A DNA stretch of 25,642 nt from a virus (taxonomy: Duplodnaviria > Heunggongvirae > Uroviricota > Caudoviricetes), in the IMG/VR virus record IMGVR_UViG_2541047502_000029, one strand, 5' to 3'. Positions 6,001-8,591 of this stretch are shown here, piece after piece (position 1 is the first letter of the stretch; each line of letters opens with the position of its first letter). A program made the position numbers.

Positions 6001-8591
6001 GCTCTCGAAAACCTTGGTTTGGGAGAAGCGGCAAAACGGGATGTGGGGACAGGGGAAAATCAGATACCGGACATGGCCTCTTTTGCCAGTGGTGATGGAT
6101 GGATGAAATTACCCAACGGGAAAATCCTGCAATATGGTCGTGGTGCGGTTACGCCGACATTATCGACGCAAACAATGAGAATTACATTCAGCATCCCTTT
6201 CTCCAAAAAAGCGGACTGCGCCATGCTTACTCATTCTGGTGATGGCGGTGCGCCTTTAGGCGCTGGGCGAGGGTTCGTGATGACTGCAGAAGGCCCAACG
6301 TTAACCGGCTTTAATTCTGCTTACAGAACGTCATCAACCAGCGACACGGTATCGATGAATTACAGTTGGTGGGCTGTTGGTGAGTAATTTTATTCAGGGT
6401 GATTTATATGAATGAATATGTTTATAGCGCAAGGCATAATGCTTTTTTCCCTGTGGATATGATTGATAAATATAAATCAGAGGGATGGGATTTATCAGAC
6501 GCTAAGGAAGTAAATCAAAATATTATCAGTGAGTTTATGGCTGAACCGCCACAAGGAAAAATCCGTATTGCCGGAGATGATGGGCTGCCTGCGTGGGCAG
6601 ATATTCCTCCACCCACGCATGAAGAACTTATTGAAATTACTGAATCAGAAAGACAGCTACTAATTAACCAGGCCAACGAATACATGAACAGTAAACAATG
6701 GCCCGGTAAAGCCGCTATTGGTCGTCTGAAAGGTGAGGAACTGGCGCAATATAATTTGTGGCTGGATTATCTGGATGCACTGGAGCTGGTTGATACCTCC
6801 AGTGCGCCAGATATTGAATGGCCTACGCCTCCGGCAGTTCAGGCCAGATGACATCCGGCGCGGTGCTGGTATCTGTTGCCGTCACCGCGTCAATGTAATC
6901 CAGCACAGCGTTAAGTCTGGTTGTTTCTGCCTGCGTCGGTTTACGTCCGGCCTGCAATTTCAGTTGAATCAGACTGATGGAAGCCATTGCTGCATCAATC
7001 AGTGACTGGCGCTGTGCTTCTGCCGCTTCTACTGCGGCACCGTGTTGTGCCTCAGTATCTGTCACCCATTTTTCACCATCCCATTTATCGAATGGCGTTA
7101 ACGGGGCGATAGTGGTTGTATTTTCAGGATAATCACCCGGAGCTGTGATTTCTTTGGCGTCTCCCGTTTCGGTGTTATAGACGATTTCACCGCGATGGTC
7201 TGGCACATATTCCCATGAGTTTAAATCCATCGAACGGCAGATAGCATAACCCGCCTTATGTATACCAGGTTCATCCAGACAGGAATATGCAGGGATACCG
7301 ACACCAATGGCAAGATATTCATTTGAAGTAGAAATATATTCCCGAGTTTTACCATCATAGTTATAGACGGTAATATTCCCCGCCTTCGTGGCAATAAGCT
7401 CGCTATTTAATACGGCGTTATCCATTATGCAGCCCTCACGATATAGTTAAATGCAATATTTCGTGGACGGGTTTCACTCCCGCCAGTATTACCGATACTC
7501 CCTCGTGAATGAAGTGTCGGTGATGGGATCAGACTCCCTCCTGTATTTGTGGCATCAAGTCCCCGTCCTTGTGTGTATGTCTTTTTGAAAATCGTAGCCA
7601 GTTCCCATTCATCTTTTGTGTCGTAACCATCATTGGCAACAACAATATGGCGGTGTTTTTCCAGCATCCCTGTCTGAATGCTCAATAAAACACGTCCTGC
7701 ATCAATACCGCGCCCGTCATCCCAGCCACGAATAAACTCACCACGTAAATCAGGCAATTTATTTGTCGGATAAGCCTTTGCCAGTTCCGGGTATTCTTCA
7801 GCAGAAAAAGCCGCACCGTTGCATTTCAGCCAGCCTGTTGGCGGTGTGGCTGAAGGCCATGGAACAGGCACACCAACAGGTAATGCAGAGCCTTCTCCCA
7901 AACCAACGTTTAAGAAAATGCAGAGATTATGGCTAACTGGCATCATCCCCGGTTTTTACTCAGGGGAATGCTCATGCTTATTGGCTATGTCCGCGTATCA
8001 ACAAATAACCAGAATACGGAATTACAGCGTAATGCGCTGGAGTGTGCAGGATGTGAGCTGATTTTTGAAGACAAGATAAGCGGTACAAAGTCCGACAGAC
8101 CAGGACTGAAAAAGCTGCTCAGGACATTATCGGCAGGTGACACGCTGGTGGTCTGGAAACTGGACCGACTGGGGCGCAGTATGCGGCATCTTGTCGTGCT
8201 GGTGGAGGAGTTGCGCGAACGAGGCATCAACTTTCGTAGTCTGACGGATTCAATTGATACCAGTACCCCAATGGGGCGCTTTTTCTTTCATGTGATGGGT
8301 GCCCTGGCTGAAATGGAGCGTGAACTGATTGTTGAACGAACAAAAGCTGGACTGGAAGCAGCTCGCGCACAGGGACGAATTGGTGGACGTCGTCCCAAAC
8401 TTACACCAGAACAATGGGCGCAGGCCGGGCGATTAATTGCATCAGGCGTTCCTCGCCAAAAGGTGGCGATCATCTATGATGTTGGTATATCGACACTGTA
8501 TAAGAAGTTTCCGGTCGGAGATAAATGAAACCGTAGCACGTCGTATGCAAGAAGATCGTGCTGCGGTTTATGCTTATCACTTAAAGACTCA

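What the first reader, a model, noticed from the sequence alone, without database searches (positions are those of the whole stretch)
6002..7918. Invertible tail-fibre host-range switch with Pin-like invertase
The 26-bp crossover sites share a 15-nt core in inverted orientation. The constant fibre N-terminus (codons 1-97) can be joined in frame to either of two unrelated C-termini, each followed by its own Tfa. This identifies which fibre is currently expressed. The machinery looks intact even though the prophage is otherwise disrupted, so the strain may show population heterogeneity at this locus.
Basis: partly seen in the sequence, partly recalled or inferred. Interest (0 to 1): 0.45.

Follow-up and report, generated by a model that had tools for sequence, protein, structure and literature searches.

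The report
Pin-type invertible tail-fibre switch (e14-like)
This is a genuine, apparently working DNA flip-switch that lets an E. coli O157:H7 prophage swap the tip of its tail fibre. It is a close allele of the long-known e14/Mu/P1 "Pin/Gin/Cin" inversion system, so it is ordinary rather than new.

Summary
Two 26-bp crossover sites (6002-6027 and 7893-7918) lie in inverted orientation. They share an exact 15-nt core, which chance does not explain.

Flipping the 1893-bp segment between them joins fibre codons 1-97 in frame to either of two C-termini with no detectable sequence similarity:
- a Gp53-like C-terminus, giving the 220-aa fibre now in the expression slot;
- a Collar-domain C-terminus, giving a 256-aa fibre.

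Each C-terminus is followed by its own Tfa chaperone gene. A 184-aa serine invertase gene sits next to the right site.

The locus is an allele of the E. coli K-12 e14 P-inversion system. The constant fibre part is 99% identical in DNA, the invertase is 94.6% identical to PinE, and the repeat core is the same.

The refutation test fails on both counts. Codons 7-30 of the invertase gene match the annotated Cin enhancer of phage P1. Public O157:H7 genomes carry this exact locus in both orientations. Two isolates with equal chromosome length have 28.5-kb loci that differ only by the predicted inversion.

The prophage is disrupted: an IS3-family element abuts the tape-measure gene at 262.

Verdict: real, correctly read, already known. 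Low interest.

The parts
5725..6013 (+). Constant 5' part of the tail-fibre gene (Sc), codons 1-97 up to the crossover core
   Evidence: ORF 5725-6387. The stretch 5673-6037 is 99.2% identical in DNA to the K-12 e14 stfP 5' end. PHROG 1396 tail fibre N-terminus.
6002..6027 (.). Left 26-bp crossover site, core TT at 6014-6015
   Evidence: It contains the e14 repeat TTGGTTTGGGAGAAG reported in PMC12529663.
6014..7906 (.). Invertible segment, 1893 bp between the two cores
   Evidence: In-silico inversion of exactly this interval converts the strain 139 locus into the strain 118 locus with 0 mismatches over 28.5 kb. The inverted 4.5-kb sequence matches public O157:H7 genomes at 100% identity and 100% coverage.
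6016..6387 (+). Variable C-terminus A (Gp53-like_C domain), now fused to Sc to give a 220-aa fibre
   Evidence: Pfam PF21882, E = 3.1e-11. Annotated as a gp53-like domain protein, WP_000554700.1.
6408..6851 (+). Tail-fibre assembly chaperone (Tfa) for cassette A, 147 aa
   Evidence: Pfam Caudo_TAP, E = 1.9e-31. PHROG 188.
6823..7425 (-). TfaE-like chaperone for cassette B, 200 aa; its 3' end overlaps the other tfa gene by 29 bp
   Evidence: Pfam Caudo_TAP, E = 4.8e-32. 88% identical to K-12 TfaE.
7425..7904 (-). Variable C-terminus B (Collar domain), now in the silent slot; fused to Sc after inversion to give a 256-aa fibre
   Evidence: Pfam PF07484, E = 1.2e-15. In-frame fusion shown. Annotated as tail fiber protein WP_000554706.1 in inverted strains.
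7893..7918 (.). Right 26-bp crossover site, core AA at 7905-7906, 81 nt upstream of the invertase ATG
   Evidence: The same 80-81-nt spacing is seen in K-12 e14, Mu, phage pro483 and several other Enterobacterales loci; other loci have 71-148 nt.
7974..8528 (+). pin: serine DNA invertase, 184 aa, catalytic Ser9
   Evidence: Pfam Resolvase plus HTH_7. 94.6% identical to PinE. Gap-free alignment to Gin. Annotated pinE in RefSeq.
7992..8063 (.). Homologue of the Fis-dependent recombinational enhancer, inside pin codons 7-30; Fis-type 15-mers at 7995-8009 and 8044-8058
   Evidence: The P1 record annotates the Cin enhancer at nt +19 to +90 of cin. The window matches P1 at 56/72, Mu at 54/72 and K-12 pinE at 63/72 positions. 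The first 15-mer is centred about 96 bp from the right core.
1..261 (.). Context: end of an IS3-family (IS629/IS1203-like) element that abuts the tape-measure gene remnant (262-663)
   Evidence: Window 262-25642 is 99.988% identical to strain 7784, but 1-261 is not. Positions 1-261 match IS3-family transposase copies.

Best explanation
This is a Pin/Gin/Cin-type programmed DNA inversion module. It is an allele of the e14 "P region", carried here by a myovirus-type prophage integrated at thrW in E. coli O157:H7 (the Sp1 / CP-933H position).

Proposed mechanism:
1. The 184-aa serine invertase binds the two inverted 26-bp sites.
2. It is activated by host Fis bound to an enhancer inside its own 5' coding region.
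3. It cuts at the 2-bp cores (6014-6015 and 7905-7906) and swaps strands, which flips the 1893-bp segment.
4. The flip puts one of two cassettes, each a fibre C-terminus plus its chaperone, behind the constant fibre 5' end and the late tail operon.
5. Progeny particles would therefore carry either a Gp53-like or a Collar-type fibre tip.

Status of the steps. Shown here: the anatomy, the reading frames, the homology, and the existence of both orientations at the exact predicted crossover in genomes that are otherwise identical across the locus. Inferred from the family: Fis dependence, the chemistry of strand exchange, and the effect on host range. Because the tape-measure gene is interrupted in this strain, the switch most likely still flips, as in K-12 e14, without producing infective phage.
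For: - Sites, frames and domains.
- Allele of e14: the constant fibre part is 99.2% identical in DNA, PinE 94.6% and TfaE 88% in protein, the same domain family sits on each side, and the repeat core is identical.
- Invertase-specific residues that contact Fis and the enhancer in Hin are all present in this Pin. In Hin numbering these are K47, K/R48, K/R51, Q151, R154 and L155 (PMC3798978). They correspond to Pin K46, K47, R50, Q150, R153 and L154 (alignments, read by me).
- Enhancer homologue at the position annotated for Cin in P1, with conserved geometry relative to the right site.
- Both orientations occur in public genomes. The native 4.5-kb query finds 90 genomes at 80% coverage or more, and the in-silico inverted query finds 102. 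Many hits in each set are 100% identical over 100% of the query.
- Strains 139 and 118 have the same chromosome length (5,453,897 bp). Their 28.5-kb loci are identical apart from the exact predicted inversion.
- e14 inversion has been demonstrated experimentally in K-12 (PMC4272514; PMC12529663).
- Shigella phage SfIV carries the constant part and cassette A at 91% DNA identity, annotated as a short tail fiber protein. This supports a real fibre function.
Against: - No read-level data exist for the window's own strain.
- Strains 118 and 139 each hold two further pin-like matches. The flipping seen there could therefore be catalysed in trans, and it does not prove that this pin allele is active.
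- No sigma-70-type promoter was predicted upstream of pin.
- Fis binding was not tested. The two Fis-type 15-mers are 49 bp apart in my register. From memory, not checked here, the published Hin spacing is 48 bp.
- A host-range effect has not been tested for either tip.
- The tail operon is interrupted by an IS element upstream, so the fibre may never be made.
Confidence: 0.9

Rival explanations
1. The switch is a frozen relic. The parts look intact, but the segment no longer inverts in this lineage.
For: The prophage is defective here, with an IS element at the tape-measure gene. No promoter was predicted for pin. Pin carries N12 where PinE and Gin have D12.
Against: The identical 4.5-kb locus, including this pin allele, is found in both orientations in many O157:H7 genomes. 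Isolates whose 28.5-kb loci are otherwise identical differ only by this inversion. Within one numbered strain series, 113-141, at least 11 isolates are in one orientation and 10 in the other.
Confidence: 0.04
2. The segment flips, but another Pin/Gin-family invertase elsewhere in the O157 genome drives it in trans. The local pin would be weak or inactive.
For: Strains 118 and 139 have three pin-like places each. Cross-activity is documented: PinQ of the Qin prophage inverts the e14 segment more strongly than PinE does (PMC12529663).
Against: The local pin is full length and carries the catalytic Ser9 and all residues specific to Fis/enhancer-dependent invertases. K-12 pinE mutants are locked in one orientation. 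The enhancer that acts in cis lies inside this gene.
Confidence: 0.1
3. The inversion has been co-opted by the host for phage defence. The cassette in the "silent" slot would be translated from the in-frame ATG at 7946 (minus strand). That would yield a free receptor-binding fragment that blocks phage adsorption, as reported for StfE2 of e14.
For: Kirigo et al. 2025 report this for K-12 e14. An in-frame ATG 12-13 codons upstream of the right core is shared by the window, K-12, pro483 and Mu. RefSeq calls these ORFs in both orientations. The next gene downstream is the defence gene PD-T4-3.
Against: The ATG is absent in most of the more distant loci that have the same architecture; eight of them have a stop codon directly upstream of the site. 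Its presence here is therefore explained by recent common descent of the intergenic region. No promoter was predicted on the minus strand upstream of 7946. The cassette tips differ from those of K-12, so any blocking specificity would differ.
Confidence: 0.1

Closest known systems
P-inversion region of the cryptic prophage e14 in E. coli K-12 (stfP-tfaP / tfaE-stfE / pinE)
   Same: The gene order is the same, after a ymfQ homologue. The constant fibre part is 99% identical in DNA, PinE 94.6% and TfaE 88% in protein. The repeat core is identical, the spacing from site to invertase gene is 80-81 nt in both, and the Pfam domain on each side is the same.
   Different: The segment is 1893 bp against 1797 bp. 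The receptor-binding parts have been replaced: the variable part of cassette A, the N-terminal half of its Tfa, and the middle of cassette B are all divergent. The host element is a different prophage, integrated at thrW with a full Mu/SfV-like tail module, rather than e14 at icd. The gene after pin is PD-T4-3 instead of mcrA.
G segment / Gin of phage Mu and C segment / Cin of phage P1
   Same: A serine invertase (gap-free alignment to Gin, E = 1e-93). 26-bp sites with AAACC-NN-GGTTT-type centres. An enhancer inside the 5' end of the invertase gene. A constant fibre part joined to alternative variable parts, each with its own chaperone.
   Different: The fibres are much longer in Mu and P1. 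The segments are about 3 kb (Mu) and 4.2 kb (P1). In P1, cin lies on the other side of the segment, with its 3' end at cixL. Those are viable phages with measured host-range effects.
Invertible fibre module of P2-like phage pro483 and its relatives
   Same: The whole module, comprising both cassettes, both tfa genes and the invertase, is 90% identical in DNA. The similarity begins exactly at the left crossover site, window 6003.
   Different: There the module is grafted onto a longer P2-type constant fibre part (a 399-aa fibre), in a different tail-gene context.
Hin / H-segment flagellar phase variation of Salmonella
   Same: The same recombinase subfamily. The same dependence on Fis and an enhancer, and the same loop of about 100 bp between the site and the enhancer (PMC3798978).
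   Different: Hin flips a promoter to switch flagellin genes. It does not exchange coding 3' ends of a fibre gene.

Membership tests
Fis/enhancer-dependent DNA invertase systems (Gin/Cin/Pin/Hin) | Small serine recombinase: N-terminal catalytic domain with the active-site serine, plus a C-terminal HTH domain | tested here: met
   Pfam Resolvase (E = 9e-52) and HTH_7 (E = 5e-13). Ser9 lies in the YVRVST motif and aligns with Ser9 of Gin (4m6f; 3uj3 has Ala there).
Fis/enhancer-dependent DNA invertase systems (Gin/Cin/Pin/Hin) | Two 26-bp imperfectly palindromic crossover sites in inverted orientation with matching 2-bp cores | tested here: met
   Sites at 6002-6027 and 7893-7918, with cores TT and AA on the + strand. 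21/26 identity, and half-site symmetry of 9/12 and 8/12. Not explained by chance.
Fis/enhancer-dependent DNA invertase systems (Gin/Cin/Pin/Hin) | Cis-acting enhancer with two Fis sites in the 5' part of the invertase gene | tested here: inconclusive
   Sequence homologue of the annotated Cin enhancer at 7992-8063 (56/72 identical to P1, 63/72 to K-12). It contains two G...C 15-mers and an AT-rich spacer (AATTA, TAATG) resembling that of Hin. Fis binding and enhancer activity cannot be tested with these tools.
Fis/enhancer-dependent DNA invertase systems (Gin/Cin/Pin/Hin) | Invertase-specific residues that contact Fis and the enhancer (Hin K47, K/R48, K/R51; Q151, R154, L155) | tested here: met
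   Pin has K46, K47, R50, Q150, R153 and L154. Positions were read from the gap-free alignments to Gin and to the Hin DNA-binding domain, using the criteria in PMC3798978.
Fis/enhancer-dependent DNA invertase systems (Gin/Cin/Pin/Hin) | The segment actually inverts at the cores | tested here: met
   Both orientations occur at 100% identity in public genomes. Strains 139 and 118 differ only by inversion of 6014-7906. This was shown for the identical locus in other strains, not for the window's own strain.
Phage tail-fibre host-range switches (constant N-terminus with alternative C-termini) | One constant fibre N-terminus, two alternative in-frame C-termini, each followed by a cognate Tfa gene | tested here: met
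Phage tail-fibre host-range switches (constant N-terminus with alternative C-termini) | The two forms confer different adsorption specificities | not testable with these tools
   Inferred only. The tips have no detectable similarity to each other.
e14 P region (pinE allele) | Orthology of the constant fibre part, the invertase and the crossover sites with K-12 e14 | tested here: met
   99.2% DNA identity over 5673-6037, 94.6% protein identity to PinE, and an identical repeat core. The surrounding prophage and its integration site differ.

The most novel reading that the evidence does not exclude
The switch may be kept in a defective O157:H7 prophage because the host uses it. Depending on orientation, the cassette in the "silent" slot would be translated from the ATG at 7946. 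This would give a free fibre-tip fragment of 173 aa now, or about 136 aa after inversion. Such a fragment could mask a surface receptor and create a phage-resistant subpopulation, as recently claimed for StfE2 of K-12 e14. It would act alongside the adjacent PD-T4-3 defence gene.
Probability: 0.1. Interest if true: 0.5.

Novelty: already known. Interest (0 to 1): 0.13.

Why it matters
It matters little as a discovery, because the Pin/Gin/Cin inversion switch is a textbook system and RefSeq already annotates this locus as pinE with tail-fibre and tfa genes.

It is useful in practice in three ways:
- It is a small, frequent structural polymorphism. Isolates whose loci are otherwise identical differ only by this flip. 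It should therefore not be read as phylogenetic signal or as an assembly error.
- It breaks short-read assemblies at the crossover site.
- It marks a site where fibre-tip cassettes are exchanged between e14-like, P2-like and Mu-like phages.

If the recently proposed defence role of e14 inversion extends to this allele, the locus could add to phage-susceptibility differences within O157:H7 populations.

Tried and rejected
1. Independent translation of the silent cassette as a conserved feature. I compared 28 loci. The in-frame ATG 12-13 codons upstream of the right core is present only in close relatives (window, K-12, pro483, Mu and five others). Most of the more distant loci lack it, and eight have a stop codon directly upstream of the site. 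I therefore do not treat it as selected.

2. Promoters and terminators. The consensus scan found nothing upstream of pin or of the silent ORF, and totals were at shuffle level. This is uninformative.

3. Additional crossover sites, as in multi-inversion systems such as Min or shufflons. None were found; the core occurs only twice in the window, even allowing 2 mismatches.

4. Origin of the strain series 113-141. Two O157 structural-variation papers (PMC8743559, PMC8991562) do not mention these accessions or this small inversion. I therefore describe only what the sequences show.

5. Published description of inversion at Sp1. Papers on the Sakai prophages and the FRIK strains (PMC2669165, PMC7430833) do not mention an invertase or fibre inversion at Sp1.

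6. Sakai as the source of the window. Rejected. Sakai Sp1 lacks the baseplate genes, has a different constant fibre part, and has a diverged cassette B region. No complete genome in the collection has the window's IS/tape-measure junction at 100% identity.

7. Technical note. Locus L003 could not be read as its own file in the sandbox. I pasted the sequence instead.
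Full report
**What is in the sequence**

The window carries, in order on the + strand:
- Mu/SfV-type baseplate genes: Baseplate_J at 4088-5146 and Mu Gp48/YmfQ at 5137-5721;
- a 220-aa ORF at 5725-6387;
- a Tfa (Caudo_TAP) gene at 6408-6851;
- on the opposite strand, a second Tfa gene at 6823-7425 and an ORF at 7425-7946 that begins with a Collar domain;
- on the + strand again, a 184-aa Resolvase plus HTH_7 protein at 7974-8528.

The repeat finder reported one outstanding inverted pair, 6009-6028 / 7892-7911, 20 nt and 95% complementary. Read at base level, these are two 26-bp imperfect palindromes:
- left, 6002-6027: CTCTCGAAAACC-TT-GGTTTGGGAGAA;
- right, 7893-7918: TTCTCCCAAACC-AA-CGTTTAAGAAAA.

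They match at 21 of 26 positions in inverted orientation, with an exact shared 15-mer. That 15-mer occurs exactly twice in 25.6 kb, once per strand. The chance expectation is 0.07 even allowing two mismatches, and 0 of 100 shuffles reached two matches.

The core dinucleotide sits at positions 2-3 of codon 97 of the fibre ORF. It sits in the same codon phase on the minus-strand ORF. Inverting 6014-7906 in silico therefore replaces the C-terminus in frame. The product changes from 220 aa (Gp53-like_C) to 256 aa (Collar). The two variable parts show no detectable similarity (E = 3.9). The two Tfa proteins share only their C-terminal third (38% identity over 73 residues).

**What it is**

The window is E. 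coli O157:H7 DNA. Positions 262-25642 are 99.988% identical to strain 7784. In that strain the region is a complete-looking prophage of about 36 kb at tRNA-Thr (thrW). It has an integrase, repressor, antiterminator, lysis genes, P27-type terminase, HK97-type head, contractile tail, baseplate, this fibre switch and pinE. A P4-like satellite follows it. In strain Sakai these positions are named Sp1 and Sp2.

Compared with the K-12 e14 element:
- the constant fibre 5' part plus the left site is 99.2% identical in DNA;
- the invertase is 94.6% identical to PinE and TfaE is 88% identical;
- each side has the same Pfam domain as in e14;
- the repeat core equals the e14 repeat TTGGTTTGGGAGAAGG quoted by Kirigo et al. 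(PMC12529663).

What differs is the receptor-binding content of the cassettes: the variable part of cassette A, the N-terminal half of its Tfa, and the middle of cassette B. The locus is therefore an allele of the e14 P-inversion system with swapped tips.

The module also travels as a unit. The P2-like phage pro483 carries both cassettes, both tfa genes and the invertase at 90% DNA identity. The similarity starts exactly at the left crossover site (window 6003), and there the module is grafted onto a longer P2-type fibre. Several Klebsiella, Citrobacter and Salmonella phage records also begin their similarity at window 6003 or 6009. Shigella phage SfIV carries the constant part plus cassette A at 91% identity, annotated as a short tail fiber protein. 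This supports a genuine fibre role for the 220-aa product.

**Is the machinery intact?**

The invertase aligns without gaps to Gin over residues 1-181 (PDB 3uj3 and 4m6f, E about 1e-93), and it has the active-site Ser9.

McLean et al. (PMC3798978) list residues that distinguish Fis/enhancer-dependent invertases from resolvases. These are Lys47, basic residues at 48 and 51, and Gln151, Arg154 and Leu155 (Hin numbering). The corresponding Pin residues are K46, K47, R50, Q150, R153 and L154, and all conform (alignment, read by me).

The P1 reference record annotates the Cin enhancer at nt +19 to +90 of cin. The equivalent stretch of this pin is 7992-8063. It is identical to P1 at 56/72 positions, to Mu gin at 54/72 and to K-12 pinE at 63/72.

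That stretch contains two 15-mers with the G...C ends typical of Fis sites: GTATCAACAAATAAC (7995-8009) and GTGCAGGATGTGAGC (8044-8058). Both are conserved in Mu, K-12 and pro483; in P1 only the second keeps the G...C ends, because the first ends in A. Between them lies an AT-rich spacer (AATTA...TAATG), comparable to the ATTTA/TAATG segments that Hin helix B contacts. The first 15-mer is centred about 96 bp from the right core, which matches the "~100 bp" loop described for Hin. The spacing from site to invertase start (80-81 nt) is the same in K-12, Mu and pro483.

Fis binding itself cannot be tested here. My register gives a 49-bp spacing; from memory, not checked here, the published Hin spacing is 48 bp. 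I therefore call this step "homologue present" and not "shown".

**Does it flip?**

- The native 4.5-kb region (5000-9500) is found at 80% coverage or more in 90 complete E. coli genomes. All 25 listed hits are 100% identical over 100% of the query.
- The same region with 6014-7906 inverted in silico is found at 80% coverage or more in 102 genomes. Thirty of these are at 99.8% identity or more over 100% of the query.
- A genome in the opposite orientation can cover at most 58% of a query in one place, so the two counts do not overlap.
- Within one numbered series of cattle isolates, at least 11 are native (119-121, 132-135, 138-141) and 10 are inverted (113-118, 130, 131, 136, 137).
- Strains 139 and 118 have chromosomes of identical length (5,453,897 bp). 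Their 28.5-kb loci differ at 1401 positions, all between window 6029 and 7891. Inverting exactly 6014-7906 makes them identical, with 0 mismatches.
- RefSeq annotates the two predicted products in these strains: 220 aa and 256 aa.

A supplementary sign comes from 80 Pin-homologue loci in other Enterobacterales. In 14 of them the contig ends 63-92 nt upstream of the invertase ATG, that is, at the crossover site. This is the break that short-read assemblers make when a culture holds both orientations.

In K-12, inversion of the homologous segment has been shown by whole-genome sequencing and PCR (PMC4272514) and by qPCR (PMC12529663).

**Limits**

- No reads from the window's own strain are available.
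- Strains 118 and 139 contain two further pin-like matches, and family members act on each other's sites (PinQ on e14). The observed flips therefore do not prove that this pin allele is the enzyme responsible.
- No sigma-70 consensus promoter was found for pin. Absence in such a scan is weak evidence.

**"Prophage otherwise disrupted"**

This is supported. Window 1-261 does not match strain 7784. It matches the end of IS3-family (IS629/IS1203-like) elements and abuts the tape-measure gene at 262. Whether this is a simple insertion or an IS-mediated deletion cannot be seen from the window.

The rest of the tail module (262-5724) is intact; only 3 mismatches and no gaps separate the whole of 262-25642 from strain 7784. 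In Sakai, by contrast, Sp1 is a 10.6-kb remnant. There the replication genes abut a fibre gene with a different constant part, and the switch sits in the opposite orientation. That remnant neither excises nor replicates (PMC2669165).

So "which fibre is currently expressed" should be read as "which cassette is in the expression slot". Real expression would need late transcription through an operon interrupted by an IS element.

**Mechanism and rivals**

Best explanation (confidence 0.9): Fis/enhancer-activated serine-invertase inversion that exchanges fibre tips, retained and still flipping in a defective prophage.

Rivals:
- A frozen relic (0.04). The orientation polymorphism contradicts this.
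- Flipping driven in trans by another invertase (0.1). This is not excluded.
- Host co-option for phage defence through translation of the silent-slot ORF, as claimed for StfE2 (0.1). For this last rival I checked whether the in-frame ATG at 7946 is conserved. It is shared with K-12, Mu and pro483. Most of the more distant loci lack it, and eight have a stop codon directly upstream of the site. Its presence is therefore explained by common descent and gives no independent support.

**Novelty and score**

This is the known Pin/e14 system, already annotated as such, with both states in RefSeq. The only particular features are the cassette alleles and the prophage context. I found no paper that describes inversion at the O157 Sp1 locus specifically, but nothing about it would surprise a specialist. 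Novelty: already known. Interest: 0.13.

Noticed in passing
window 8589-9413 (-): The gene directly after pin is a full-length PD-T4-3 anti-phage defence gene (PADLOC E = 2.7e-140; Pfam LEM-3-like GIY-YIG). K-12 e14 has the restriction gene mcrA in this slot, so the position downstream of pin seems to hold exchangeable defence cargo.
   Followed up: partly
window 13078-16354 (+), inside the P4-like satellite prophage (integrase 11842-13074, primase 20588-22978): A Lamassu defence system that looks pseudogenised. LmuA is split into two ORFs (13078-13494 and 13467-14084), LmuC is intact (14069-14542), and LmuB is split into three ORFs (14508-15167, 15198-15788, 15788-16354) against a 610-position profile. 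Sakai annotates the ATPase there as a pseudogene.
   Followed up: partly
window 1-261 and 262-663: The end of an IS3-family (IS629/IS1203-like) element abuts the 3' remnant of the tail tape-measure gene. No complete E. coli genome in the collection has this exact junction at 100% identity.
   Followed up: partly
loci L015, L016, L019, L023, L030, L031, L035, L037, L047, L052, L056, L057, L058, L062: In 14 of 80 Pin-homologue loci from other Enterobacterales draft genomes, the contig stops 63-92 nt upstream of the invertase start, that is, at the crossover site. This is the assembly break expected when a sequenced culture holds both orientations.
   Followed up: partly
window 6823-6851: The two convergent tfa genes overlap by 29 bp at their 3' ends. 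The same 29-bp overlap is present in K-12 e14 and in phage pro483.
   Followed up: no
window 7907-7946 (-): An in-frame ATG 12-13 codons upstream of the right crossover core extends the silent cassette into a complete ORF. It is shared with K-12 e14, Mu and pro483, but most of the more distant loci with the same architecture lack it.
   Followed up: yes
window 10178-11337: An AraC-family regulator gene (10178-10930) and a partial IS3-family transposase fragment (10972-11337, minus strand) lie between the fibre-switch prophage and the P4-like integrase. The same arrangement is present in Sakai, where the fragment is annotated ISEc48 partial.
   Followed up: no
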